This document shows positions 3,830 to 20,784 of a stretch of DNA of 54,498 bases, piece after piece. Under the pieces are notes generated by a model. The model did not search any database, was not told where the DNA came from, and worked only from the letters and a program-made list of their open reading frames with translations. The DNA is taken from positions 1-54,498 of the IMG/VR virus record IMGVR_UViG_3300021425_000050; one strand, 5' to 3'. The translations under genes were made by a program, and so were the position numbers. The stretch's first letter is position 1. Each line of letters begins with the position of its first letter. This stretch comes from a virus. Lineage: Duplodnaviria; Caudoviricetes.

Positions 3830-5593
3830 ATGGCAGATAAAATATACATTAAACACAATTTAGGGAACTTTAATCAACCTTACATCGCAAGGTCGACAGT
3901 TAATGCTCAAAACCCTATAATCGCTCAGCAGAATAGAAGACAACCTAGAATTCTACAAGTTCCTAGCACTTATCAAAATAGACAACCGAGCACCTATCGT
4001 GACCCTGTAAATGCTCAACAACCTAATATTAGAAATAAACAACATCCGTTTAATAGAAGTTATAGAACACCAAACGCAGTAAGTAATCAGGTTCCGTTTA
4101 CATACCCTACGATAGCACAACAACCTGCGACTTATCAACATCAGAGTCCAAGTATATACACTGCTCAGACTCAAATACCTAGTCAATATCAACATCAGAG
4201 TCCTTATATTACTAGAAGAAGTTATACTTTTCAAAGTCCAGCGATTTATCAACATCAATCGCCCTATACATTTCGTTCGCCAGGAACAGTGCAACAACCA
4301 GGTACTTATCAACATCAACAACCTGCTTCGTATGACCACAGAAGTCCTTATACTATACCTAAAACTTATAGTCATAGAACGCCTGTAAGTAGACAAAACT
4401 CTATTGCTAATCCTGTTATTAGACATAGAGATTATCAGAATCCTGTAAATTACCAGAATCCTGTAATTAGAGATAGACAGAGTCCAGTCATTGCACAATC
4501 ACCAACTCCAGTAATTATAGCAAACGGTAATGTAGGAACGACATATTATTACGGTGCTGGAAGAAATCGTATTAATAGTCCATTAGCAGCTACTAGAATT
4601 CCAAGTATAGTCACAGGAGCTCAAAGTCCTATGGCCCCCATGTCTTGGAATGCATATGGAATTTATAATCATCAATCAACTACTGTCTCAACTTATAATT
4701 CGCAGGTAGAACTTGCATTTAGATTAGATTGTAACTGGATTAACGGCAGTCCTTATTTCAATCTTTGGACAAAAAGAGGACCTACTGCAACTTCATCCCC
4801 TTATTCAAATGGAAGTTATTTCTGTTATGATGAGATAGATACTTCAACTGTTATGGGTTCAACAGCAGGTTGGTATATTGCTTCAAATTGGGATTTACCA
4901 TCATCGATGGTAAATAGTGGTAGTGGGTTTAAGATAAACATGATATTACAAGATTGGACGGGTTCTAGTGGAACAGTTTCAGGTATTCAACCTGTGACAT
5001 CGTTTGATTATTCACATACAAATATCAGTTATGGAACTGATATAAGTTCGTCAGTGGGAACTTCTGACCCAAGTAGTATTTGGACAGGTACTGGTACAGG
5101 TGCATCTGCCTTTATGACCAAAACTGTTAACGGTTCTCCTGGAACAACTTTTAACAACGCTGTAACTGCTGCTACAATATCATATCCAGCGGATCCAGGT
5201 GGTTCAGGCGCTCAAACAGCATCATCATTATCATGGGGTGTAAAAACAACAGCAATTAGAAATACAGGTGGTAATACAGCAACATTTACTAATAGTTCAA
5301 ACTTTGATATAATTGTGCAAATAGAATTAGAAGACCAACACACTTCTAATTCAAATGATTTACCATATCACTTAGTTAGAACAACTAATTTATTACAAAG
5401 AGTCACAACAGGCGGCGGCGGAGGAGGCGGTGGCGGGTTTACCCCATTCACTCCTACTTTCCAATCTTTCTATCAAGAGCCTCTCCAACAGGAAATTAAT
5501 AGATATAACCAGGACATAGAAAATAGATATACGCCGTTGGCCCCATCGGTTATAAATCCAACTATTAACGAATTCGACAGTGGTATACAATAA
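3830..5593 (+). CDS. Pro-punctuated repeat protein (zipper chain A1) with C-terminal Ser/Thr/Gly-rich domain and poly-Gly
   Basis: A 202-aa tract of 6-12 aa Pro-delimited units (3878-4483), then a long non-repetitive S/T/G/N-rich region and GGGGGGGGGF near the end. Confidence 0.7.
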   Translation: MADKIYIKHNLGNFNQPYIARSTVNAQNPIIAQQNRRQPRILQVPSTYQNRQPSTYRDPVNAQQPNIRNKQHPFNRSYRTPNAVSNQVPFTYPTIAQQPATYQHQSPSIYTAQTQIPSQYQHQSPYITRRSYTFQSPAIYQHQSPYTFRSPGTVQQPGTYQHQQPASYDHRSPYTIPKTYSHRTPVSRQNSIANPVIRHRDYQNPVNYQNPVIRDRQSPVIAQSPTPVIIANGNVGTTYYYGAGRNRINSPLAATRIPSIVTGAQSPMAPMSWNAYGIYNHQSTTVSTYNSQVELAFRLDCNWINGSPYFNLWTKRGPTATSSPYSNGSYFCYDEIDTSTVMGSTAGWYIASNWDLPSSMVNSGSGFKINMILQDWTGSSGTVSGIQPVTSFDYSHTNISYGTDISSSVGTSDPSSIWTGTGTGASAFMTKTVNGSPGTTFNNAVTAATISYPADPGGSGAQTASSLSWGVKTTAIRNTGGNTATFTNSSNFDIIVQIELEDQHTSNSNDLPYHLVRTTNLLQRVTTGGGGGGGGGFTPFTPTFQSFYQEPLQQEINRYNQDIENRYTPLAPSVINPTINEFDSGIQ

Positions 5594-5595
5594 AC

Positions 5596-6405
5596 ATGGC
5601 ACAGCAATATACAGTAAATACTAGGGCATCGTTTCAATCGTCTACGCCTGTGCAATATGGTCACAGAACTCCTGCAACTACAAGACAGCCTGCTATTCAA
5701 CCTTACGGTAATCAGGAACCATATCAGTCACCTTCTACTTACAGACACCCTGTAATTAGAAATTATGATATGAATAGACAACAACCTAATATTAGGAACT
5801 ACAGAATACCTTTAACAGATGTTGATTATCAAACAACTGTAGATTATCAACAACCAACTAGTGGCGGTGTTCCTTTTGATAGAAGTTATAGAACGCCTCT
5901 AACAGGTAGATATCCATTTGCAAATAGACAACCTAATATAAGAGATAGACAAACTCCTTCTCCTTATATTGCTAATAAACAGAATCCGTTTATCAGAAAT
6001 TATCAGAACCCATACGCTTATCAGGCAAGTGATAGACAACCTACAATTTATAATGCTCAAATAGCAGGTTCTTATCAACATCAATCTCCTTCTGAATATC
6101 AACATAGAAGTCCGTTCACTTATCAGAATCCTGTTAATGCTCAGAATCCTTATATTGCAAATGCACAATCGAATCAACCTTATCAGATTGTATATCAAGT
6201 TGCATATTCTTATAGAAGTCCGTCAACTTATCAGATTACATATAATAGTCAAAGACCCATTACGCAGGTTGCAGAAGCAAAAGCAATATACATCAAAGAC
6301 GCTGATGGTGTGGTAAAGAAAGTTAATAAGGCATATGTAAAAAATAATAGCACAGATGTAGAACAAATACATCAATCTATACCTTATCCTAATCTAAACA
6401 CTTAA
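5596..6405 (+). CDS. Pro-punctuated repeat protein (zipper chain B1, mirror partner of 3830-5593)
   Basis: A 203-aa repeat tract (5647-6255) and a C-terminal AIYIKDADGVVKKVNKAYVK motif. Starts 2 nt after the upstream stop. Confidence 0.7.
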   Translation: MAQQYTVNTRASFQSSTPVQYGHRTPATTRQPAIQPYGNQEPYQSPSTYRHPVIRNYDMNRQQPNIRNYRIPLTDVDYQTTVDYQQPTSGGVPFDRSYRTPLTGRYPFANRQPNIRDRQTPSPYIANKQNPFIRNYQNPYAYQASDRQPTIYNAQIAGSYQHQSPSEYQHRSPFTYQNPVNAQNPYIANAQSNQPYQIVYQVAYSYRSPSTYQITYNSQRPITQVAEAKAIYIKDADGVVKKVNKAYVKNNSTDVEQIHQSIPYPNLNT

Positions 6406-10985: not shown

Positions 10986-11204
10986 ATGGCAACACAAAAC
11001 ACATTTGTAATAGAATATGGGTTAACAGTCGGTTCTACAGAAATCATTACATCAGCAGGAAAACTAGTCGCTAGTGCATTGTCTGAATTAGATACTGATT
11101 CTTTGTCAGAAGGTTCGACTAACCAATATTTCACAACATCAAGATTCAACACATCTTTTGATACGAGACTAGCGAATGCTACAATTGACGGAGGTACTAT
11201 CTAA
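10986..11204 (+). CDS. Miniature fibre-like protein (72 aa)
   Basis: N-terminus paralogous to 11204 (GLTVGSTE.I.S.G), one TDSLSEGSTNQYFT module, ends IDGGTI. SD AGGA. Confidence 0.65.
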   Translation: MATQNTFVIEYGLTVGSTEIITSAGKLVASALSELDTDSLSEGSTNQYFTTSRFNTSFDTRLANATIDGGTI

Positions 11205-13207
11205 TGTCAAGTAAGAATTTCATAATTAAAAATGGTCTTACTGTAGGTTCTACAGAAGTTATCAATTCTTCAGGTATCATTCAACCCGCCGCTGTAAATG
11301 AGGCGATTGATGATAGAGTAGATGCATTACTAACAGCGGGTGCAGGAATATCATTATCATATGATGACTCTGCTGGTACGCTAACAATCACAGGTAATGT
11401 CGGAGATATCACAGGAGTAAACGCTGGTGACGGTCTAACAGGTACTGCAACATCAGGAGATGCAACACTTAATATCGGTGCAGGTAATGGTATTACTGTA
11501 AATGCAGACGATATTGAAGTTAACATGGGTGCATTTAGCACATCAGATTTAACAGAAGGTTCAAACAAATATTATACAGACGAAAGAGTAGACGATAGAG
11601 TTAATGCTTTAATCACAGCGGGTTCAAACATCACAACAACATATGATGATGCCGCTGGTACTTTAACAATCGCTGCTACAGAAGATAACCTTTCAAACAA
11701 CGATACAGACGACCTCTCAGAAGGTTCATCAAACTTATACTATACCGATGCAAGAGCAAGAGCTTCTATATCAGCAAGTGGGGATTTGTCCTATAATTCT
11801 ACAACTGGTGTAATTAGTTTCACAAATGATGCAGGTGATATAGAAAGTGTAGTCGCAGGTTCTGGTTTAACAGGAGGCGGCACATCAGGTGATGTCACAT
11901 TAAATGTTATAGGTGGTGACGGTATCACTGCAAATGCAAATGACATCGCATTATCATCATCAGTTGCTGGTGATGGTCTAGGATACTCATCAGGTGTTTT
12001 ATCAGTCGGTGTAGATGATAGTTCAATCGAAATAGATTCAGATAACTTGCAAGTAAAAGCAGGTGGTATCACAAATGCTATGTTGGCAGGTTCTATCGAC
12101 CAATCTAAACTATCAGGTGGTATTTTAAATTCACAATTAGCAAATAGTTCAGTCACAGTCAATTCAAATACAGTAGCATTAGGTGCTTCTATAACTTTAG
12201 ACACAGGCGACTTTGCAGAAAATGGAAATCTATTTTATACAGACGAAAGAGTTGATGACAGAGTTTCAAACTTACTAACAGCAGGTTCAAATGTTTCATT
12301 GTCATATGATGACGCCGCTGGAACATTGACAATTTCTGCTACAGAAGATAACTTATCAAACAACACAACTTCTGATTTAGCAGAAGGTACAAATCTTTAC
12401 TTCACTAACGCAAGAGCAGATGCTAGAGTTAATGCAGTATTACCTAATACAGATTCATTAAGTGAAGGTTCATCAAATCTATATTTTTCTAATGAAAGAG
12501 TAGATGATAGAGTTAACGCTTTATTGGCAGCAGGTACAGGTATCACATTATCATATGATGACGCCGCTAACACACTAACAATTGGTGGTACTGCTCAATA
12601 TGGAGATTCAGATGCTAGAGATGCAATCTCAGTCACAGATTCAGGTGGCGATGGTTCTCTTGCTTATAACAGTTCAACAGGTGTTATAACTTATACAGGA
12701 CCTAGTTCAAGTGAAGTTAGAGCTCATCTAAGTGCAGGTACTGGTGTATCATATTCAGGTGGTCAATTCAGTATCGGACAGGCAGTTGGCACATCAGACA
12801 ATGTAACCTTTAACAATGCAGTTATATCAGGTGACTTAACAGTTAACGGTTCAACAACAACTGTATCTTCTACAAATACAACAATCGAAGATTCATTATT
12901 AGAATTAGGAACAGGAACTACAGGTTCTCCTTCTAACGATGCTGGTATTGTTATTGAGAGAGGAGATGAGTCTAATGTGTTTATGGGTTGGGACGACAGT
13001 GCAAGTGCATTTATGTTCGCTTCAACAACTGCAACAGGTTCGTCAACAGGTGCTTTATCGTTGACACACGCTGCTGTTAATACAGGTGCTTTAACAATTA
13101 CAAACGCAACAAATAGTGGCGGTACAGCAAGAAATGTGTATCAATCAACTTCTGCTCCAACATCAGGTGATGGTGCAGTTGGTGATTTATGGATTTTATA
13201 CTCTTAA
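11204..13207 (+). CDS. Long tail fibre protein with internal repeats
   Basis: Multiple D..EGS.NLY(Y/F)TD(E/A)R(V/A)DDRV...AG.....YDDAAGTLTI repeats. C-terminal SAPTSGDGAVGDLWI motif. Confidence 0.75.
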   Translation: MSSKNFIIKNGLTVGSTEVINSSGIIQPAAVNEAIDDRVDALLTAGAGISLSYDDSAGTLTITGNVGDITGVNAGDGLTGTATSGDATLNIGAGNGITVNADDIEVNMGAFSTSDLTEGSNKYYTDERVDDRVNALITAGSNITTTYDDAAGTLTIAATEDNLSNNDTDDLSEGSSNLYYTDARARASISASGDLSYNSTTGVISFTNDAGDIESVVAGSGLTGGGTSGDVTLNVIGGDGITANANDIALSSSVAGDGLGYSSGVLSVGVDDSSIEIDSDNLQVKAGGITNAMLAGSIDQSKLSGGILNSQLANSSVTVNSNTVALGASITLDTGDFAENGNLFYTDERVDDRVSNLLTAGSNVSLSYDDAAGTLTISATEDNLSNNTTSDLAEGTNLYFTNARADARVNAVLPNTDSLSEGSSNLYFSNERVDDRVNALLAAGTGITLSYDDAANTLTIGGTAQYGDSDARDAISVTDSGGDGSLAYNSSTGVITYTGPSSSEVRAHLSAGTGVSYSGGQFSIGQAVGTSDNVTFNNAVISGDLTVNGSTTTVSSTNTTIEDSLLELGTGTTGSPSNDAGIVIERGDESNVFMGWDDSASAFMFASTTATGSSTGALSLTHAAVNTGALTITNATNSGGTARNVYQSTSAPTSGDGAVGDLWILYS

Positions 13208-13239
13208 TAAATAGAGTATATACTTTGGGAAAATTATAA

Positions 13240-14859
13240 ATGGCAACAGGCTCACAGAAGGTAAAAACACCCTCAGGTTGGAATTCAACGCAAGGGGCAT
13301 GGGTAAAAACAGGAACATCAACTTGGAAGGCAGTCGACCAAATCTATGTGAAGACACCTTCTGGTTGGAATAATGCTTCTGGTCAAGAATCGGTTCAACA
13401 ACCGTATCCTTACATCGCAAATGCCCAAGAACCTAATATAAGAGATGCTCAACAACCTTATCCTTATATTGCAAATGCCCAAGAACCTAATATCAGAGAT
13501 GCTCAGCAACCTTATCCTTACATTGCGAATGCACAAAGTCCATTTATTAGAAACGGTCAACAACCTGCGATATATCAAAATCCGGTAAATGCACAAAGTC
13601 CATTTATTAGAAATGCTCAAGAACCGAACATAAGGTCAGCACAAGAACCTAATATTAGAAACGCACAAACACCGTTTACATATCAACACAGGTCACCTTT
13701 TACATACAGAGACCCAAGGTCATATAGAAATCCGTTTACATATCAACACAGGTCTCCATTTACATATCGAAACCCTGTAGATTATAGAGTGCCTTCGACT
13801 TATCAACACAGGTCACCTTCTACATATAGAGACCCAAGGTCATACAGAGTACCATTTACATATCAACACAGGTCTCCTTTTACATATAGAGACCCAAGGT
13901 CGTATAGAGTACCATTCACTTATAGTCACAGGTCGCCGTTTACATATCGAAACCCTGTTGGTTATAATATGCCGTTTACATATCAACACAGGTCGCCTTT
14001 CACATATCAGTCTAGACAACCTAACAGTGCAAGACAACCAGTTGCATACAGGTCACCGTTTACATATAGAAACCCTGTATCAGCACAACAACCAGTTGCA
14101 TTTAGGTCACCATTTACATACAGTGCTAGATATCCTGCTAACATTCAACAACCGGTAACATATCAGTCGCCGTTTACATACAGTGCTAGATATCCTGCAA
14201 ACGCTCAACAACCGAATAGTGCTAGACAACCTTTTACATATCAGGCAAGACAACCTGTTTATTTTCCACCCCCTCCAGGTGGCGGTTTCGGTTGTTTCCC
14301 TGCTGGGTCAATGGTCTGGTTGGCAGATGGTTCACATGTTGCTATCGAAACTGTCGAAGTTGGACAAAATGTTTGGACTTGGAACGAAGAACTCAATACA
14401 TTGGAAATCAATGCTGTCGAATACTGTATGAAACCAAGAGTTGTTTCAGTATGGGATATTTACTTATCAGATGGTAGAGTATTACAAACAACAGATGACC
14501 ACCCAATTAAGATTGCAGGTGTCGAAGGTTGGGGTGCTTTAAATCCTGAATTAACTGTAGAAAGACACGAATGGTTGTCAGATGATATGACACATACATT
14601 AGAAGTAGGAACTAGAATATTCACTATGACTGATGCAGTTCTATACGGTAAAGAATCAGAAGAAGTAGTAATAGAAAAAATAGAACAAAATGATGAAATG
14701 GTAGTGTATAACTTATCAGCGATTGCTAATACAGGAACATTCTTTGTTAACGGAGTTTTAGTTCATAACTACTATAACCCAATCACTGGTGAGTATGAAA
14801 ACACACCGAACTTGATGGAAGACAAATTAGACCCTGGTTTCACACCACTACCAAAATAG
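13240..14859 (+). CDS. Pro-punctuated repeat protein (zipper chain A2) with C-terminal Hint/BIL domain
   Basis: N-terminal VKTPSGW / WVK..W / YVKTPSGW motifs, 40 Pro-delimited units (13402-14253), then PPPPGGGFG and a CFPAG...VHN Hint domain. Confidence 0.8.
   Translation: MATGSQKVKTPSGWNSTQGAWVKTGTSTWKAVDQIYVKTPSGWNNASGQESVQQPYPYIANAQEPNIRDAQQPYPYIANAQEPNIRDAQQPYPYIANAQSPFIRNGQQPAIYQNPVNAQSPFIRNAQEPNIRSAQEPNIRNAQTPFTYQHRSPFTYRDPRSYRNPFTYQHRSPFTYRNPVDYRVPSTYQHRSPSTYRDPRSYRVPFTYQHRSPFTYRDPRSYRVPFTYSHRSPFTYRNPVGYNMPFTYQHRSPFTYQSRQPNSARQPVAYRSPFTYRNPVSAQQPVAFRSPFTYSARYPANIQQPVTYQSPFTYSARYPANAQQPNSARQPFTYQARQPVYFPPPPGGGFGCFPAGSMVWLADGSHVAIETVEVGQNVWTWNEELNTLEINAVEYCMKPRVVSVWDIYLSDGRVLQTTDDHPIKIAGVEGWGALNPELTVERHEWLSDDMTHTLEVGTRIFTMTDAVLYGKESEEVVIEKIEQNDEMVVYNLSAIANTGTFFVNGVLVHNYYNPITGEYENTPNLMEDKLDPGFTPLPK
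14293..14769 (+). other. Hint (intein-like/BIL) autoprocessing domain, 159 aa, no homing endonuclease
   Basis: Block A CFPAGSMVWLADG..IETVEVG, block B TTDDHP, block F VYNL and block G FFVNGVLVHN. The +1 residue is Tyr. Confidence 0.9.
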
Positions 14860-14876
14860 GAGTATGAGAGAATAAT

Positions 14877-15809
14877 ATGCCAGATTTTCAATCACCTTAC
14901 ATTGCAAATGGTCAAAACCCATTTACATTTAGGGCCCCATTTACATATAGAGTTCCTTATATTGCGAATGCAAGACAACCAGTTGCATTTAGGTCACCGT
15001 TTACATATAGGGTCCCTTACATCGCTAATGCTCAGCAACCGAATACATACAGGTCACCTTTCACTTACAGAAACCCTGTAAATGCTCAACAACCTGTCAC
15101 ATTCCAATCACCGTTTACATTCCAATCACCTTATATTGCGAATGCTCAAGAACCGAATATCAGGTCAGCACAAACTCCAAGAGGATATCGTGTACCTGTT
15201 TCTGCTCAAGAACCGAATATTAGAAACGCTCAACAACCTGCTGGTTATAGATTACCTGTTAATGCTCAAGAACCGAATATCAGGTCAGCACAACAACCTG
15301 CTGGTTATAGATTGCCTGTTAATGCTCAAGAACCGAATATTAGAAACAGACAAACACCTGCAAAATATCAGAATCCAGTAAACGCTCAGGAACCTAATAT
15401 TAGAAACGCACAACAGCCTGCTGGTTATCAGCATCCTGTTTCTGCTCAACAACCTAATATTAGAGATGCAAGACAACCATCGACTTATCAACATAGGTCT
15501 CCGTTTACTTATAATCATAGGTCTCCATTTACTTATCAACATAGGTCTCCGTCTACATATAGAGACCCTGTAAGTTATAGAGTTCCATTTACATATCAAC
15601 ATAGAAGTCCTTCGACATATGCAACACAAGGTCAGACACCGTTTACATATCAACACAGGTCTCCTTTCACATATGCAAGACAAGGTCAAACACCGTTTAC
15701 CTATCAACATAGAAGTCCGTTTACATATGCAACACAAGGAAGAACACCAGTAATCCGTTGGGATGGTGATTTGAATCAAAATTGGCCAGGTACTCCAGTG
15801 TCGTCATAA
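14877..15809 (+). CDS. Pro-punctuated repeat protein (zipper chain B2, mirror partner of 13240-14859)
   Basis: Almost the whole protein is 40 Pro-delimited units (14895-15746). Confidence 0.8.
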   Translation: MPDFQSPYIANGQNPFTFRAPFTYRVPYIANARQPVAFRSPFTYRVPYIANAQQPNTYRSPFTYRNPVNAQQPVTFQSPFTFQSPYIANAQEPNIRSAQTPRGYRVPVSAQEPNIRNAQQPAGYRLPVNAQEPNIRSAQQPAGYRLPVNAQEPNIRNRQTPAKYQNPVNAQEPNIRNAQQPAGYQHPVSAQQPNIRDARQPSTYQHRSPFTYNHRSPFTYQHRSPSTYRDPVSYRVPFTYQHRSPSTYATQGQTPFTYQHRSPFTYARQGQTPFTYQHRSPFTYATQGRTPVIRWDGDLNQNWPGTPVSS

Positions 15810-15839: not shown

Positions 15840-17423
15840 ATGCAACAGATAGACCACGATATTATTTTAAAACTTTTTAGCGAAGACAGAGAAGACTGGA
15901 AAGAAAAACATTTCTATAAACACATCGGTTCGATGAATCTTAGTGAAGATTGGGAACAATCTACAACATGGAAAAATGTTTCATGGTTGTATGAAAATAG
16001 ATTACCTAAACTTAAAAAGGTGACATGGGGTGATGTTTCAAAACTTCAAAAAGAAGGCAAACTCATAGGTTGGAATCAACTACAATCTCAAGCATTCGGT
16101 TATCATTATTTCTTACCTTTAGGTTGGACTGCTAAACCTGAATTTCCAGCACCTGGTAAATCAGGTATGGATTTTATAAACATCAATGGTGAATATGAAA
16201 ATATTTGCAATCATGTAAGATTCGATGATGTAGATTATGAACCTGATGAAGGTAAAAAAGGCAATTTAGATTCAGTTTACTATCATGATGCCAAAGCACA
16301 TTGGTTAGTAGATAGTATTAGAAGAGATGGTCTTTGGAATCCTATTCAAGGTGTTGTAGCACCAGCACATGATGACAAGTATAAACTATCAATACACCCA
16401 GGTTCTGTAAGGTCACCTGTATTCGAATGTTTAGATGATGAATCTTTACAAATGTGGATATGGGATGATTACGATTTATTTGATTGGATACCTGAATATA
16501 CTTTACATACATTACTAACTGATTTATCTAATCACCCAAAAATGGGTCAAAGAGATATGGGTAAAAAGAATGTCTCTTTTGGATATACTCATGGTTATAT
16601 GGAGATATCTACTGAACTACAACAATTAACTTTTAGAAGTGATGTTTATGAATTCAATGAAAGAATTGCAAAAATGGCACAAGGTAAAAGAATAAACATC
16701 TACATTGGATATGATTCTCGTCATAAAGAAATTGCAGAATTAAACGCATGGACAATGTTGAAATCTATTCAACAAGGTTTTGGTGGGGGTGATGTTCATG
16801 GAACAATGAAACATTGGATACCTGAAATCAAATTCTTAGACATATCAAAGATACCAGAATATACTAGAGATTATGCTCAACAATCAACAGAGTTTACATA
16901 CAGTCGTTTCTTAATACCATACTTAGAAAACTACAAAGGGTTTAGTATTTTCTTAGATGATGATATACTTTTTACCAAGAGTATATTACCGATGTTCTAT
17001 TTCTTAAATCCAGATGATGCAGTTGCATGTATCAAATATGACTTTGAAAAACATAACGATACAAAGTTTGACGGTGAAAAGAATGTAAACTATCCTAAAA
17101 AATTATGGTCTTCATTAATGATATTTAATAACGGTCATGAAGATTGTAAGAAACTAACACCAGATGTAGTTAATACACAAACAGGAAAGTATCTACATCA
17201 ATTCGAATGGACAGATAAAATATCAGATATACCTCAACACTATATATTTACAGAAGGCTACGATACAGACGAATCAAGTTGGCGTCCATCTGCTATACAT
17301 TATACAAGAGGTGGTCCATGGATTGACAATATGGATACATCTAATATTGATAAACTTGATGAATACGAAAGATTGTATAATAAGTGGTTGAACTATAAAA
17401 AACAAAATGATATAATGGAGTGA
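15840..17423 (+). CDS. GT-A glycosyltransferase (GT8/CDI-like) fused to an N-terminal ParB/Srx-like region
   Basis: C-terminal half has IYIGYDSR, STEFTYSRFLIPYL, a DxD-type FLDDD, KLWSSLMIFN and HYTRGGPW. N-terminal half has LVDSIRRDGLWNPI...HPGSVR. Confidence 0.7.
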   Translation: MQQIDHDIILKLFSEDREDWKEKHFYKHIGSMNLSEDWEQSTTWKNVSWLYENRLPKLKKVTWGDVSKLQKEGKLIGWNQLQSQAFGYHYFLPLGWTAKPEFPAPGKSGMDFININGEYENICNHVRFDDVDYEPDEGKKGNLDSVYYHDAKAHWLVDSIRRDGLWNPIQGVVAPAHDDKYKLSIHPGSVRSPVFECLDDESLQMWIWDDYDLFDWIPEYTLHTLLTDLSNHPKMGQRDMGKKNVSFGYTHGYMEISTELQQLTFRSDVYEFNERIAKMAQGKRINIYIGYDSRHKEIAELNAWTMLKSIQQGFGGGDVHGTMKHWIPEIKFLDISKIPEYTRDYAQQSTEFTYSRFLIPYLENYKGFSIFLDDDILFTKSILPMFYFLNPDDAVACIKYDFEKHNDTKFDGEKNVNYPKKLWSSLMIFNNGHEDCKKLTPDVVNTQTGKYLHQFEWTDKISDIPQHYIFTEGYDTDESSWRPSAIHYTRGGPWIDNMDTSNIDKLDEYERLYNKWLNYKKQNDIME

Positions 17424-17425
17424 TT

Positions 17426-17977
17426 ATGAATATGTTAATTTATTGTGAGAACGGAAATCTCACTATCAGAAAACCAAACGGACTACAATATACATTTGAG
17501 AATACAGATAAACCTGAATTAGGGTTTCATTATGATGTATTAATCTACGATGATATTGAATGTAAGATTTTAGAATGGGAAGATGACAAACCATTTGAAG
17601 AACAGAAACAAATTGCATTGAATGAAGAAGAGATTGATGCTATCGAATCATATATTGAGAACTCAGTTCCACCTGAAAATGTAAGTCTCAATGGTCAATA
17701 CAGTGAAGACTTGAATAATCAAGCGAAACAGTATATACTAGAAATGTGTAATGCATATGGTTTCGCACACGAAGTTGAAGTTCTAATGGCAGGTCGTGAA
17801 GGTTCAAATCACCCTTACAGGTCAGATGCAAGAAGAGTCATGGAATATGTTGATGCTGTCTGGAATGTATATGTAAATGTGATGAACGAAATAAGACAAA
17901 CAAGGGAAGATACTCTAAAACCTTTTGAAGATTATAGTTCACAAATACCTACGCCTAGAAAAGCACAAACAAACTAA
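17426..17977 (+). CDS. Hypothetical protein, possibly tail-fibre assembly chaperone-like
   Basis: C-terminal YGF...S.HPYRSDARRVMEYVDAVW resembles fibre-assembly-like phage proteins. Start is 17420 (GTG) or 17426 (ATG). Confidence 0.4.
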   Translation: MNMLIYCENGNLTIRKPNGLQYTFENTDKPELGFHYDVLIYDDIECKILEWEDDKPFEEQKQIALNEEEIDAIESYIENSVPPENVSLNGQYSEDLNNQAKQYILEMCNAYGFAHEVEVLMAGREGSNHPYRSDARRVMEYVDAVWNVYVNVMNEIRQTREDTLKPFEDYSSQIPTPRKAQTN

Positions 17978-19222
17978 ATGAGAATTCTTGTAATTGCTAC
18001 CATTAGGTGTGGTGGAACTTATTTCGCCGAGTCAATTGCAAATAATCACAATTTAGATTACATACATGAACCAAAGTTTAAGAACTTAGGTGCAACAAAT
18101 AAAGATAATGTTGTTGTTAAAATTTTAACACATGCACCTTTTACAGACATAAAGAAGATTATCGAATACTCTAAAAACTTTGATAGAGTTTATGTGTTAG
18201 ATAGAAAGGATAAAGAAGAACAATTAAGGTCTGTTTATTCTCTCTATGAATATCCAAAAGAATCTGCTCATAGTAGTTATCATTGGGATGATTCTATGTT
18301 CGAAAAAGAGAACCCTAAAGATACAAAAGAAGAGTATGAATCATGGATAAATAAATTTACTGAACAAGTAAATACAATTGCTTCTATCTTAAATAAAGAT
18401 ATTCTATATTATGAAGACTTGTATTACGGTAAAGTTGAATTAAAAGATATAAAGTTTATGCCAGATACATCTGAAAGATTAAGAAAAGAACCTATAAAGA
18501 TAGAGTATAAAGATAGTCCTTTCAATGTAAAAGACTTACCCTTAGATAGAGTTTATGTATTCGATAATTACTTAGAAAATTCTCTTTGGAAATTTATAGA
18601 TAAACAACTAACTCAATCATCTACATGGGCGAAAACAAATCAAGTAAATTCACAACATAAGACAGGTTTACCTCATCATAGTTTTTGGGGAACATCTATT
18701 CTAAGAGCAGATGAACATGGTAATGGATACTTAGATTATGATGCAGGTTGGACTGAATCATCAGGTGCATTGTTTAGATGGTTCAATAGAAGAATATGCA
18801 CCGACTTTGGGTTTAAATGGAAAAGATTTCAGTATATGGGTACGAATAGTCAAACCCAAGGACTAGAAGGCACAACTCATGCAGATTGCCAAAAAGATGA
18901 TGAATGGAATCTATCATTTCTATATTATTACAATAGTTATTGGAATGAAGAATGGGGTGGTGATTTAAGATTCTATGATGATGTTCCACAACATGGTCGT
19001 ATGGGTCGTGAAGAACATATAAAGAATCATCAAATCGGAAGTGTTGAGTTTGTTCCGAATAGACTTATAATGTTTGACGGTAGAATACCCCATGGTGCAG
19101 ATGCCCCTAATAGTAAAGCAAGATATATGGACAGAAGGTCTATTGTATTGAGAGGAGATGAAGTTCAACTAGTAGACGAGGAGGAAATGTTTAATGCCAA
19201 CGATAGATTTTACAACATTTAA
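17978..19222 (+). CDS. Sulfotransferase-like N-domain fused to 2OG-Fe(II) oxygenase
   Basis: N-terminus has ILVIATIRCGGTY...HEP...YYED (RSG(T/S)T/HEP-like). C-terminus has HxD (THAD), WGGDLRFY, PNRLIMFDGRIPH and a distal R. Confidence 0.65.
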   Translation: MRILVIATIRCGGTYFAESIANNHNLDYIHEPKFKNLGATNKDNVVVKILTHAPFTDIKKIIEYSKNFDRVYVLDRKDKEEQLRSVYSLYEYPKESAHSSYHWDDSMFEKENPKDTKEEYESWINKFTEQVNTIASILNKDILYYEDLYYGKVELKDIKFMPDTSERLRKEPIKIEYKDSPFNVKDLPLDRVYVFDNYLENSLWKFIDKQLTQSSTWAKTNQVNSQHKTGLPHHSFWGTSILRADEHGNGYLDYDAGWTESSGALFRWFNRRICTDFGFKWKRFQYMGTNSQTQGLEGTTHADCQKDDEWNLSFLYYYNSYWNEEWGGDLRFYDDVPQHGRMGREEHIKNHQIGSVEFVPNRLIMFDGRIPHGADAPNSKARYMDRRSIVLRGDEVQLVDEEEMFNANDRFYNI

Positions 19223-20114
19223 TGAAGACTCGTTAAGAGATTTCAAACCTGTTTTAGCAAAGACATATGCACCTGATTGGTGGAAATCAGCGAAGGTTTG
19301 GAACACTGTTAGAGGTCGTCACATACAAACAATTCGTGCCTGCCCAGCTATGGACGATTGGTTGAAGTCTGGTTGGTATATACTTGCAAATAGAGACATG
19401 GAAGTATGTTTTGGTTCAAGTAAAGATGATAAGAATAGTAAGATATCTTTTACACAGGACCCCGAATGGGATTATCAAAAAAGAAGAAGAAAAGGTCTGC
19501 CAGAAGAAGGTGAAGGCCCAAATACATCTGGTTATCCTGTATATCATTCACCATCTCACCCAGCAGAACAATTCTATCATTCATTCAAATACTTACCTGA
19601 TGAAGAATCACCTGTAAGAGATGCATTCAAAATGAGAAGTGCTTGGAATATCAAAACGCCACCAGGTTATTCGTGTTTTTATCTTGACCCATTTTTATTT
19701 CAGAACGAACACTTTGCTGTGTGGCAAGGTATAATTGATACAGACTCATTCAACACTAACTATGACAATTCTCAAATCATTCTCTATCCAAGACATAGTA
19801 AAGATTTCATAATTAAAAAAGGAACACCTTTAGTTCAGATTATACCTTATAAAAGAGAAAATTGGGTTGCAACATATCAATGTATGACCGAAGAAAGTTG
19901 GCAGACTAGTCGTAGTCACATTACAAATGAACATAAAAATTTAACAATGGATGAATGGGGTAGAACAAAATATGATATGTCAATGGAAAGAGTAAACCCA
20001 ACATTAGGTCCATACAGAAACGAAGGTTATTGGCAAGAAAAAGGTAAGATGTTTAAAGAAGATGGACCGCCACCTGAATGTCCATTTCACAAAGGGGGAG
20101 AAGATGACAGTTAA
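19194..20114 (+). CDS. Conserved phage hypothetical protein (DUF6065-like) found in oxygenase clusters
   Basis: TIRACPAM.D....GW, W.IKTPPGYS, GIIDTD and IKKGTPLVQIIP motifs. Confidence 0.55.
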   Translation: MPTIDFTTFNEDSLRDFKPVLAKTYAPDWWKSAKVWNTVRGRHIQTIRACPAMDDWLKSGWYILANRDMEVCFGSSKDDKNSKISFTQDPEWDYQKRRRKGLPEEGEGPNTSGYPVYHSPSHPAEQFYHSFKYLPDEESPVRDAFKMRSAWNIKTPPGYSCFYLDPFLFQNEHFAVWQGIIDTDSFNTNYDNSQIILYPRHSKDFIIKKGTPLVQIIPYKRENWVATYQCMTEESWQTSRSHITNEHKNLTMDEWGRTKYDMSMERVNPTLGPYRNEGYWQEKGKMFKEDGPPPECPFHKGGEDDS

Positions 20115-20784
20115 AAAATTATTTCCAACATATGTCTTCGAATGGGATTTTCTAGGAGAAGATAGCAACGAGTTGATGACACCTGAATATTTTAGATTGC
20201 TTAGAGAAGAAATGGACGCTATGAGAAGAAGAGACCCTGTAGGTCGTAGTGTGTCAAATGCTTATACAGGTTGGCAATCAAACGATAGAGTTGATGATAA
20301 TCCTATCTTTCAAAAATGTATTAGACAAATTAAGAAAAAGGTCAGAGAAGAGATTGGTCCAACATTGGGCATGAAGAACACAACAGTCAATTTTCACAAT
20401 GCTTGGGCAAACATTAATGATAATTTGGCATGGAACAAACCACATTTACACAATGGTTGTATGTATTCAGGCGCTTTTTATATACAAGGCGATGGTGATG
20501 AAGGTCATTTTATAGCAATAGATACTGATTATAAGTTTGTTGGAAATGTTCCTAGAAGTCAATCTGTTGTTAGAGAATCTTATAGTATTGCACCTAAAAC
20601 AGGTTTTTTAATAATGTTTCCGAGTGGTCTAATGCATATGGTCGAACCAAATCCTACTCAGAAAGATAGATATAGTATTTCATTCAATTTAGACTTTGAT
20701 GGTGATAGAAGCGAAGAAAATAATAACTCCAGTTTATCATATAAAATCAAAGACAAATACGGTAATCTTGCAATTAACGAGTAA
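20104..20784 (+). CDS. 2OG-Fe(II) oxygenase (TIGR02466-like)
   Basis: WANIN...NKPHLH...SGAFYI...FPSGLMHMVEPN...RYSISFN. ATG 20104 follows the SD-like GGGGGAG. Confidence 0.8.
   Translation: MTVKKLFPTYVFEWDFLGEDSNELMTPEYFRLLREEMDAMRRRDPVGRSVSNAYTGWQSNDRVDDNPIFQKCIRQIKKKVREEIGPTLGMKNTTVNFHNAWANINDNLAWNKPHLHNGCMYSGAFYIQGDGDEGHFIAIDTDYKFVGNVPRSQSVVRESYSIAPKTGFLIMFPSGLMHMVEPNPTQKDRYSISFNLDFDGDRSEENNNSSLSYKIKDKYGNLAINE

What the first reader, a model, noticed from the sequence alone, without database searches (positions are those of the whole stretch)
13402..15746. A base-pair-like complementarity code between facing peptide units
Seen in sequence when A2 is aligned with reversed B2. P(N/F)IRxxxx faces P(F/S)TYxHRS in 12/12 cases, and which chain carries which type flips after unit 11. 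PYIANxxx faces PFTYx(A/S)Rx in 4/4. PYPYIANAQx faces P(F/S)TYAxQGxT in 3/3. Among the 21 hexamers, 12 pair an aromatic P(F/S)T(Y/F)xx unit with a non-aromatic Pxx(A/I)(Q/R)x unit. The other 9 have one aromatic at position 4 on each side (PRSYRV/PAGYRL, and PVDYRV/PAKYQN with D opposite K). Facing units are never identical. Inference: knob-into-hole complementarity gives sequence-programmed, register-specific heterodimerisation, potentially a designable peptide pairing alphabet.
Basis: partly seen in the sequence, partly recalled or inferred. Interest (0 to 1): 0.88.

Follow-up and report, generated by a model that had tools for sequence, protein, structure and literature searches.

The report
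Two phage proteins with mirrored pairing code
Two neighbouring genes of an uncultured marine phage encode repeat proteins whose proline-bounded units match one another in length and in complementary type when one chain is read backwards, which points to a long two-chain fibre held in register by a pairing code that has not been described before.

Summary
Protein A (13240-14859) and protein B (14877-15809) each carry 40 proline-initiated units of 6, 8 or 10 residues. The length series of A equals that of B read backwards in 40 of 40 units.

It holds in relatives. In 55 distinct A/B pairs from related viral contigs the number of units ranges from about 22 to 70, yet the mirror is kept. The cognate B is the best match for 49 of 55 A chains, and repeat lengths correlate at r = 0.969.

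Facing units are complementary. Of 1881, 1742 pair a P-x-T-Y/F/H unit with a different type, against 1068 +/- 19 after shuffling, and none are identical.

Aromatic residues sit at even positions only (34.1% against 0.1%), and proline only at odd positions. That is the pattern of a beta strand.

Single-chain relatives carry both arms in one chain with the same rules.

Best reading: an antiparallel two-chain beta-ribbon stalk in the phage's host-recognition gene cluster, with a facultative self-cleaving Hint domain at its far end. No structure prediction gave a confident model. No family or paper was found. Physical pairing is inferred, not shown.

The parts
13240..14859 (+). Gene A, 539 aa: conserved N-terminal piece, 40 repeat units, Gly-rich linker, Hint domain, short tail
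   Evidence: ORF. 423 relatives with E <= 0.001 in the metagenome protein collection. 79 related viral loci. No PHROG family.
13240..13401 (+). A residues 1-54, the conserved 'head' piece (MATGSQKVKTPSGWN...WKAVDQIYVKTPSGWN...), the best-conserved part of A
   Evidence: Most invariant columns of alignment A1 lie in residues 1-60. tblastn finds it in 79 of 79 loci at 75-91% identity in the 12 loci printed. In the mirrored register it lies beside the C-terminal tail of B (inference).
13402..14253 (+). A repeat region, residues 55-338: 40 Pro-initiated units of 10/8/6 aa. Units 1-11 are non-aromatic types, then mostly P-x-T-Y types.
14254..14292 (+). Linker PVYFPPPPGGGFG (residues 339-351), ending in Gly just before the Hint Cys
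   Evidence: A poly-Gly run precedes the Cys in the Hint-bearing relatives printed.
14293..14769 (+). Hint (Hedgehog/intein-like) autoprocessing domain, residues 352-510: Cys1 (CFPAGS), TDDH (T-x-x-H), terminal His-Asn followed by Tyr
   Evidence: Pfam Hint 24.1 bits, Intein_splicing 21.8, Vint 20.4, all below their cut-offs. PDB sequence hits: intein C-terminal splicing domain protein 8w20 at E 0.005 and bacterial intein-like domain 2lwy at E 0.011. Relatives carry precomputed PF14890, PF14623 and PF01079. Motifs.
14770..14856 (+). 29-aa tail after His-Asn (YYNPITGEY...), with no Cys/Ser/Thr at position +1
   Evidence: In 54 Hint-bearing relatives the +1 residue is G 26, F 11, M 6, L 3, R 3, I 3, S 1, K 1.
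14877..15809 (+). Gene B, 310 aa: MPDFQS, 40 repeat units, conserved C-terminal tail
   Evidence: ORF. A partner ORF lies next to A in 76 of 79 loci; in the other 3 only one repeat ORF was found on the locus. No PHROG family. Pfam Cementoin 28.7 bits, judged a repeat-composition match.
14895..15746 (+). B repeat region, residues 7-290: 40 units whose lengths, read backwards, equal those of A
15747..15806 (+). B C-terminal tail PVIRWDGDLNQNWPGTPVSS, conserved (R-W-D ... W-P), the proposed second half of the 'head'
   Evidence: Invariant columns R294, W295, D296, W303, P304 in alignment A2.
11204..13207 (+). Upstream tail-fibre-like gene (667 aa), the neighbour of A
   Evidence: DNA hits to annotated tail-fibre or structural genes of marine phages. 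PHROG structural and tail families. Found in 78 of 79 loci.
3830..6405 (+). A second, more degenerate pair with the same unit vocabulary: C (3830-5593, 587 aa) and D (5596-6405, 269 aa)
   Evidence: 14 coincident prolines in antiparallel register against 10 in parallel. 14 of 1000 shuffles reach 14. Facing units include PSTYRD/PVNAQN and PNIRNKQH/PSEYQHRS.

Best explanation
A and B are the two chains of one elongated structural protein of an uncultured marine T4-like myovirus. Their repeat regions (284 residues each here, 162-540 in relatives) lie side by side in opposite directions, most likely as a long two-stranded antiparallel beta ribbon.

Each Pro-to-Pro unit of one chain faces a unit of equal length in the other, so prolines face prolines. 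All inter-proline spacings are even. That would keep every proline at the ribbon positions whose backbone NH points outward and is not needed for pairing. It also puts aromatic and small residues on one face and Pro/Thr/Gln/Arg/Asn/Ile on the other.

Within a rung, a 'P-F-T-Y...' unit faces an '...N-A-Q-x' unit. Tyr4 lies opposite Ala, Thr3 opposite Gln/Arg, and Arg7 opposite Ile3. One bulky unit therefore always meets one small unit, and two like units never meet.

The order of 6/8/10-residue units is aperiodic, and the chain that carries the aromatic unit switches along the length. Together these would select one register and disfavour self-pairing.

The conserved N-terminal 54 residues of A and the conserved C-terminal 20 residues of B end up together and probably form the attachment piece. 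The other end (A's C terminus, B's N terminus) is variable. Here it carries a Hint domain that most likely cuts itself off at the Gly|Cys junction.

Shown: the mirror, its co-variation in homologues, the type complementarity, the two-residue periodicity and the single-chain hairpin forms. Inferred: physical pairing, beta-ribbon geometry, 1:1 stoichiometry, a role as a fibre or stalk of the host-recognition apparatus, and Hint self-cleavage.
For: 1. Mirror in the window: 40 of 40 units, against 8 of 40 in parallel and a maximum of 30 in 100,000 shuffles.

2. Co-variation. In 55 distinct pairs, a median of 0.90 of B's prolines face a proline of the cognate A, against 0.49 for non-cognate combinations. 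The cognate B ranks first for 49 of 55 A chains. Repeat-region lengths of A and B correlate at r = 0.969 over 162-540 residues, and differ by 8 residues or fewer in 32 of 55 pairs. The second-best register reaches a median of 0.69 of the best.

3. Complementarity. 1742 of 1881 rungs are heterotypic, 13 are aromatic-type on both sides, and 0 are identical. Shuffled values are 1068 +/- 19 heterotypic and 72.6 identical. In 48 of 54 pairs none of 500 shuffles reached the observed value. The 8-mer subtype rule holds in 833 of 879 cases against 649 +/- 8. Of 669 hexamer rungs only 1 is small-small at position 4.

4. Strand signature. F/Y/W/H make up 34.1% of even positions and 0.1% of odd positions. 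Of 1936 facing units, 1934 have an even length.

5. Gene order is B-then-A in 3 of 55 pairs and the mirror persists.

6. Fused forms. Single-chain relatives P0094, P0108 and P0084 carry an N-arm and a C-arm with 17, 17 and 16 mirrored proline pairs. The maximum in 300 shuffles is 13. Their rungs follow the same rule, for example PFTYQNRT/PYIANARQ and PFTYRN/PVNAQQ.

7. No DNA inverted repeat explains the mirror.

8. Context. The pair lies between a tail-fibre-like gene and the T4 neck and gp15 genes, in conserved synteny in 69-78 of 79 loci. In passages read from PMC7029224, this region of pelagimyophages is called the host recognition cluster.

9. Hint. Cys1, T-x-x-H and His-Asn are present, with weak matches to intein and bacterial intein-like chains.
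Against: No physical or confident structural evidence exists. AlphaFold2 left the repeats of two single-chain relatives at pLDDT of about 30-40. In the second model the only long strands are 17-36 and 418-437, which are the mirrored segments, but at pLDDT of about 40 this is not evidence.

Nine of 55 pairs differ by more than 18 residues between the two repeat regions. Some of these gaps come from how the end of the repeat run was detected. In L005, L020, L022, L034 and L042 one chain has roughly one extra super-repeat, and their cognate B ranks only 1st to 4th. These may be repeat collapses in metagenome assembly, or real mismatches that a strict ladder would not tolerate.

Five of 8 single-chain forms do not exceed their shuffles in the ungapped test.

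All homologues belong to one phage lineage, so the counts are not independent events.

A ribbon 1 nm wide and 55-180 nm long would probably need further association, such as pairs or trimers of ribbons. The data say nothing about that.

No virion proteomics and no cultured phage carry the genes. The only match of A in the phage genome collection is one 27%-coverage match in a Ruminococcus phage, and B has none.
Confidence: 0.6

Rival explanations
1. The chains do pair antiparallel and in register, but not as a simple two-stranded ribbon. The ladder could be part of a higher-order assembly, such as two or three ribbons packed by their aromatic faces or an A3B3 fibre, or another extended fold in which each Pro-bounded unit is one segment.
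For: One face is rich in Phe/Tyr/His/Ala and would be exposed in an isolated ribbon. Phage fibres are usually trimers (established knowledge). The inferred lengths of 162-540 residues are long for a lone ribbon.
Against: Nothing in the sequence requires a third chain. Neighbouring units along a chain show no length constraint; only facing units do. That fits a ladder better than a solenoid with stacked rungs.
Confidence: 0.25
2. A and B do not touch each other. Both lie along a common third template, such as another fibre or the tail, in opposite directions. The mirrored unit lengths reflect that template.
For: Mirror symmetry alone would also arise this way. The genes sit among other fibre genes.
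Against: The number of units ranges from about 22 to 70 among close relatives, while the flanking genes stay syntenic. A shared template would have to change in step. The strict type complementarity, with 0 of 1881 identical rungs and subtype matching, is most simply explained by direct contact. Single-chain hairpin forms also fit direct contact.
Confidence: 0.07
3. The repeats are disordered Pro-rich spacers or low-complexity sequence. The mirror would then be a by-product of how the tandem repeats evolve, with no structural meaning.
For: Structure predictors give no confident fold. Tandem DNA repeats of 24-180 nt are present.
Against: Both genes are on the same strand and share no inverted DNA repeats, so no known DNA mechanism reverses the unit order at protein level. 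The mirror, the complementarity and the even-only spacing are maintained through many indels in 55 pairs. Aromatic residues are confined to even positions.
Confidence: 0.05

Closest known systems
Heterodimeric coiled coils (knobs-into-holes heptad code, e.g. Fos/Jun and designed pairs)
   Same: Two chains pair along their length through a repeating positional code. Complementary residues give hetero-specificity and register. Fibres of variable length are built from repeats. (The comparison rests on established knowledge; nothing here was tested against it.)
   Different: Here the units are bounded by proline, which breaks helices. Periodicity is 2 residues within units of 6/8/10, not 3.5. The orientation is strictly antiparallel, and the lengths of the units themselves form part of the code.
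Collagen heterotrimers and other phage fibre shafts (triple beta-helix of T4 gp5/gp12, triple beta-spiral of adenovirus and reovirus fibres)
   Same: Pro-containing short repeats build long thin virion or matrix fibres. Register is specified by sequence. The genes lie in a tail-fibre cluster.
   Different: Those are parallel trimers, mostly of one gene product, with a constant repeat length. Here two different gene products have mirrored variable unit lengths and type complementarity. No sequence or profile match to any fibre family was found for the repeats.
Bacterial intein-like (BIL) and Hedgehog-type Hint domains
   Same: Residues 352-510 of A have Cys1, T-x-x-H and a terminal His-Asn, and match intein and BIL chains weakly. 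Passages of the review PMC7765530 describe A-type BIL domains as having conserved C-terminal His-Asn, sitting in variable regions of non-conserved proteins, and self-cleaving at the N or C terminus.
   Different: The Pfam scores are below the curated cut-offs. The domain is nearly C-terminal, with a tail of only 4-15 residues in the 54 relatives scored (29 in the window), and is preceded by poly-Gly. Cleavage or ligation has not been tested. It is present in only 16 of 79 loci.
Cementoin / trappin transglutaminase-substrate repeats (PF10511)
   Same: B scores 28.7 bits against a cut-off of 27. Both are hexapeptide repeats with Pro, Val and Gln.
   Different: The match covers about 27 residues of a Pro-Val-x-x-Gln pattern. 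A scores only 17.5 bits. B's repeats hold a single Lys (sequence), whereas cementoin repeats are, as recalled, Gln/Lys cross-linking substrates of mammals. I read this as a compositional match, not kinship.

Membership tests
Hint superfamily (intein / BIL / Hedgehog autoprocessing domains) | N-terminal Cys/Ser nucleophile at the cleavage junction | tested here: met
   Cys352 in GGGFG|CFPAGS. A Gly-Cys junction is present in 54 of 112 A-type relatives.
Hint superfamily (intein / BIL / Hedgehog autoprocessing domains) | Block B T-x-x-H motif | tested here: met
   TDDH at position 67 of the domain. Present in 54 of 54 Hint-bearing relatives.
Hint superfamily (intein / BIL / Hedgehog autoprocessing domains) | Significant profile or sequence match to Hint-fold families | tested here: inconclusive
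   Pfam Hint 24.1 bits (cut-off 29.7), Intein_splicing 21.8 (35.8), Vint 20.4 (27). PDB hits at E 0.005 and 0.011. Relatives carry precomputed PF14890/PF14623/PF01079 hits. The fold was not modelled.
Canonical splicing intein | Cys/Ser/Thr at position +1 after the terminal His-Asn, and a C-extein that continues the host protein | tested here: not met
   The +1 residue is Tyr in the window. Among 54 relatives it is a nucleophile in 1 (Ser). The tail after His-Asn is 4-15 residues in those 54 relatives and 29 in the window.
Phage tail-fibre or structural protein families (Pfam, PHROGs) | Profile match of A or B to a described fibre family | tested here: not met
   0 PHROG families for A and for B at E <= 0.001. 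No fibre family in Pfam at E <= 0.1. NCBIfam was not searched.
Cementoin (PF10511) | Score above the gathering threshold, and Gln/Lys transglutaminase-substrate repeats (the second feature is recalled) | tested here: inconclusive
   B 28.7 bits against 27; A 17.5 bits. Only one Lys in B's repeats. The match covers about 27 residues.
Two-stranded antiparallel beta ribbon (structural class, not a family) | Two-residue side-chain alternation, and proline confined to one parity | tested here: met
   Aromatics 34.1% at even and 0.1% at odd positions. Pro at position 1 (and 3 of the 10-mers) only. 1934 of 1936 units have an even length.
Two-stranded antiparallel beta ribbon (structural class, not a family) | Observed or confidently predicted inter-strand hydrogen-bond ladder | tested here: inconclusive
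   AlphaFold2 models have pLDDT of about 30-40 in the repeats.

The most novel reading that the evidence does not exclude
Nature has evolved a 'beta zipper' with a digital code. Two chains, or two arms of one chain, form an antiparallel ribbon hundreds of residues long. Register and partner choice are written in two layers: the lengths of proline-bounded modules (6/8/10) and a complementary module alphabet (P-F-T-Y... against ...N-A-Q-x, with matched subtypes). The ribbon grows or shrinks by compensating module insertions in both genes. That would be a third natural solution to sequence-programmed fibrous pairing, beside coiled coils and collagen, and a ready-made alphabet for designing orthogonal beta-strand heterodimers. 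The Hint domain at the hairpin end, preceded by poly-Gly, may use its thioester to seal or attach the ribbon end rather than merely cut itself off.
Probability: 0.4. Interest if true: 0.95.

Novelty: categorically new. Interest (0 to 1): 0.86.

Why it matters
Long repetitive fibres face a register problem: identical repeats can slip. Coiled coils and collagen solve it with charge and packing codes, and those rules became the basis of protein design. These phage proteins appear to solve it for extended strands. They use module lengths and a two-class complementary alphabet, documented here by natural co-variation across dozens of homologue pairs and by single-chain versions.

If the pairing is confirmed physically, it gives a new fibrous architecture and a natural rule set for orthogonal, length-programmable beta-strand pairing. 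It also identifies an abundant, so far unannotated component of the host-recognition region of uncultured marine myoviruses. Finally, it raises a testable evolutionary question: how are two genes kept mirrored through repeat expansions?

Tried and rejected
1. Complex prediction of A(1-350) with B, using alignments A1 and A2. Verdict 'no answer': ipSAE 0.00 in two runs, and controls were not run. This is neither support nor evidence against.

2. AlphaFold2 of the single-chain relative P0173 with 39 sequences. The repeats have pLDDT of about 30 and no structure. Only a C-terminal beta-sandwich reaches pLDDT 55-75. A VIA-align search of 48,161 chains gave a best Z of 5.3, to Ig-like domains, which is not informative.

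3. AlphaFold2 of the hairpin form P0094 with 24 sequences. Mean pLDDT is 38.9. The model's only long strands, 17-36 and 418-437, are the mirrored arms, but confidence is too low to count.

4. Fused A-B proteins. None of 172 retrieved proteins carried both the A-head and B-tail motifs in a simple regular-expression test. That test was narrow: its A-head pattern matched only 22 of the 172. Fusions were later found for the related C/D type.

5. ESM Atlas search with B. There was no hit at 0.9 or above and no model.

6. Antisense or inverted-DNA origin of the mirror is rejected: no inverted repeats, and antisense ORFs have no Pro periodicity.

7. A polyproline-II or collagen-like reading is rejected. 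The periodicity is 2, not 3, and units of 8 and 10 are not multiples of 3.

8. A self-palindrome scan of all retrieved proteins was uninformative as a first pass, because regular repeats score by themselves.

9. Literature. Four searches found no description of these proteins: terms on phage, proline, antiparallel, heterodimer and fibre; Hint domain and tail fibre; six motif strings matched anywhere, 0 papers; pelagimyophage and tail fibre. Subscription journals and supplementary files are outside what could be searched.

Full report
**What is there**

The span 13402-15746 runs from the first repeat unit of ORF A (13240-14859, + strand, 539 aa) to the last repeat unit of the next ORF B (14877-15809, + strand, 310 aa). 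A has five parts:
- a 54-residue N-terminal piece;
- 40 proline-initiated units (residues 55-338);
- a linker, PVYFPPPPGGGFG;
- a Hint-type domain, residues 352-510 (Cys1, TDDH, terminal His-Asn);
- a 29-residue tail.

B consists of MPDFQS, 40 units (residues 7-290) and a 20-residue tail, PVIRWDGDLNQNWPGTPVSS.

The window is a 54.5-kb fragment of an IMG/VR virus record. Its tail sheath is 47-50% identical to those of Pelagibacter myophages Mosig and HTVC008M and of Methylophilales phage Melnitz. A and B lie between a tail-fibre-like gene (11204-13207) and the T4-type neck and gp15 genes. Passages read from PMC7029224 call this region of pelagimyophages the host recognition cluster.

The unit-length series of A equals that of B read backwards in 40 of 40 units. 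In parallel orientation 8 of 40 match. The best other offset gives 24 of 37. The best of 100,000 shuffles gives 30. The chain carrying the aromatic unit flips after unit 11. Only two short inverted DNA repeats exist in the two genes, so the mirror is a property of the proteins and not of the DNA.

**Relatives**

A has 423 relatives with E <= 0.001 in the metagenome protein collection. It has 79 related loci in IMG/VR. In the collection of sequenced phage genomes there is only one 27%-coverage match for A and none for B. Neither A nor B matches any PHROG family.

In 76 of 79 loci two adjacent same-strand repeat ORFs are present. In the other three only one repeat ORF was found on the locus. After removing duplicates, 55 distinct pairs remain, counting the window. 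Gene order is A-B in 52 and B-A in 3.

**Co-variation of architecture**

The number of units per chain ranges from about 22 to about 70, and the order of 6/8/10-residue units differs widely among pairs. Within each pair the prolines of B still coincide with prolines of A in antiparallel register:
- The median fraction of B's prolines that coincide is 0.90 (range 0.63-0.96). Non-cognate A x B combinations give 0.49.
- The cognate B is the best partner for 49 of 55 A chains. The rest rank 2nd to 4th.
- The repeat regions of A and B correlate in length at r = 0.969 over 162-540 residues. They differ by 8 residues or fewer in 32 of 55 pairs, by 18 or fewer in 46, and by more in 9.
- The second-best register reaches a median of 0.69 of the best, at shifts of one super-repeat.

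There are exceptions. In L005, L020, L022, L034 and L042 one chain has roughly one extra super-repeat. These could be repeat collapses in short-read assembly or real mismatches. I could not tell which.

**Complementarity beyond length**

I set proline opposite proline and cut both chains at coincident prolines. This gives 1936 facing units in 54 distinct pairs, and 1934 of them have an even length.

Among the 1881 units of 6, 8 or 10 residues:
- 1742 pair a P-x-T-[Y/F/H] unit with a unit of another type, 126 pair two other-type units, and 13 pair two P-x-T-Y units.
- None are identical.
- Permuting same-length B units within each protein gives 1068 +/- 19 heterotypic rungs (maximum 1132 in 1000 shuffles) and 72.6 identical rungs (minimum 49).
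- In 48 of 54 pairs none of 500 shuffles reached the observed value. In the other six, 1 to 41 did.

A finer rule holds among the 8-mers. His/Tyr/Phe at position 6 of the aromatic unit goes with Arg/Lys at position 4 of the partner (PNIR type). A small residue at position 6 goes with Ala at position 4 (PYIA type). This is true in 833 of 879 cases, against 649 +/- 8 after shuffling.

Of 669 hexamer rungs, 562 are aromatic-small at position 4, 58 aromatic-aromatic, 46 aromatic-other, 2 other-small and 1 small-small.

**Strand signature and register**

Across all units, F/Y/W/H make up 34.1% of even positions and 0.1% of odd positions. Proline occupies odd positions only. This strict two-residue alternation through units of 6, 8 and 10 residues is what an extended beta strand gives. 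A three-residue polyproline or collagen-type helix would not give it.

With proline opposite proline, residue i of a unit faces residue L+2-i of its partner. The commonest facing pairs are then:
- Tyr4 opposite Ala(L-2), 55-68%;
- Thr3 opposite Gln/Arg, 95-100%;
- Arg7 opposite Ile3 in 8-mers, 94%;
- Gly8 opposite Tyr4 (95%) and Arg6 opposite Ala6 (92%) in 10-mers.

From established knowledge of antiparallel sheets, residues alternate between hydrogen-bonded and non-hydrogen-bonded pairs. In a two-stranded ribbon, proline is tolerated at the latter. Even spacings would keep every proline there. This step is inference.

**Single-chain forms**

The window holds a second, more degenerate pair with the same vocabulary: C (3830-5593) and D (5596-6405). 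It has 14 coincident prolines in antiparallel register, a value reached by 14 of 1000 shuffles.

Metagenome proteins P0094, P0108 and P0084 combine a C-type N terminus and a D-type C terminus in one chain. Their N-arm and C-arm are mirrored, with 17, 17 and 16 proline pairs against a maximum of 13 in 300 shuffles. They obey the same type rule, and 11 to about 150 residues lie between the innermost mirrored prolines at the turn. Five further such proteins do not exceed their shuffles in this ungapped test. A chain that goes out and comes back with the same pairing rules is the natural fused counterpart of the two-gene form. It argues for direct antiparallel contact.

**Ends**

The best-conserved parts are the N-terminal 54 residues of A and the C-terminal R-W-D...W-P tail of B. 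The mirrored register brings these two pieces together.

The opposite end varies:
- a Hint domain in 16 of 79 loci;
- a short Gly-rich end, such as ...GGGNFCEP;
- a variable domain of about 130-150 residues, with an extra 100-aa ORF between the two genes.

Among 112 A-type proteins, 54 carry the Hint domain. It is always preceded by a Gly run and always has T-x-x-H and His-Asn. The +1 residue is a nucleophile in only 1 of 54. This fits a self-cleaving Hedgehog- or BIL-like module rather than a splicing intein (passages of PMC7765530). Cleavage itself is inferred.

**Structure prediction gave nothing usable**

The complex job returned no answer. AlphaFold2 left the repeats of P0173 and P0094 at pLDDT of about 30-40. 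In the P0094 model the only long strands are 17-36 and 418-437, which are the mirrored arms. At that confidence this is only a remark.

**Comparison with what is known**

The system works like a heterodimeric zipper, in the way of coiled coils or collagen heterotrimers, but in extended strands, antiparallel, and with module length as part of the code. It belongs to no described fibre family that I could test. The Cementoin hit of B (28.7 bits against 27) covers about 27 residues of a Pro-Val-x-x-Gln pattern, and I read it as compositional. Four literature searches found no description. Subscription journals and supplements were not searchable.

**Verdict**

Confidence by claim:
- direct, in-register antiparallel pairing of A and B: about 0.8;
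- the pairing is a beta ribbon, alone or within a higher-order fibre: about 0.55;
- it is a stalk or fibre of the host-recognition apparatus: about 0.6.

The combined statement is given 0.6.

Noticed in passing
window 3830-6405: A second adjacent gene pair, C (587 aa) and D (269 aa), uses the same unit vocabulary in a more degenerate form. C has a large globular C-terminal part and a poly-Gly run. C's N terminus (MADKIYIKH...) and D's C terminus (...AIYIKDADGVVKKV...VEQIHQSIP) are found fused in single-chain relatives.
   Followed up: partly
window 15840-20784; also L036 6541-9428: Directly downstream of B lie a GT8-like glycosyltransferase (527 aa; Pfam 21.6 bits, below its cut-off of 24.3) and two 2OG-Fe(II) oxygenases (PF13640 at 33.2 bits; PF13759 at 63 bits). 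PF13640 is, as recalled, the family that includes prolyl 4-hydroxylases. The order is conserved in 73-77 of 79 loci. Hydroxylation or glycosylation of the Pro/Thr/Tyr-rich repeats is conceivable but untested, and the synteny may only reflect common descent.
   Followed up: partly
L036 5217-5519 and the A C-termini of L036, L043, L048, L064: In loci where A ends in a variable domain of about 130-150 aa instead of a Hint domain, a 100-aa ORF with no Pfam match sits between A and B. It could be an assembly factor.
   Followed up: no
proteins P0173, P0096, P0124, P0080 (metagenome relatives): A wider set of marine proteins (N termini MSDDIFIKH... or MSEE...) uses the same units. Runs of aromatic-type 8-mers are followed by equally long runs of PNIR-type 8-mers, for example 5+5 in P0096 and P0173, and a mirrored 8,8,12,8,12,8,8,8 in P0124. 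They end in a beta-sandwich or Hint domain.
   Followed up: partly
loci L005, L020, L022, L034, L042: In these pairs one chain is roughly one super-repeat longer than its partner, while close relatives are matched. They are either assembly collapses of tandem repeats or natural intermediates of compensating expansions.
   Followed up: no
protein P0075: A 502-aa protein combines a C-type N terminus (MADDIYINTG...) with a B-type C-terminal tail (...RWDGVLQQQWPATPITS). This suggests that the end pieces are exchangeable modules.
   Followed up: no
window 13195-13210; L036 3600-3612: The upstream tail-fibre-like protein ends in a conserved ...GDLW(I/V)LYS just before gene A in both the window and L036.
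   Followed up: no
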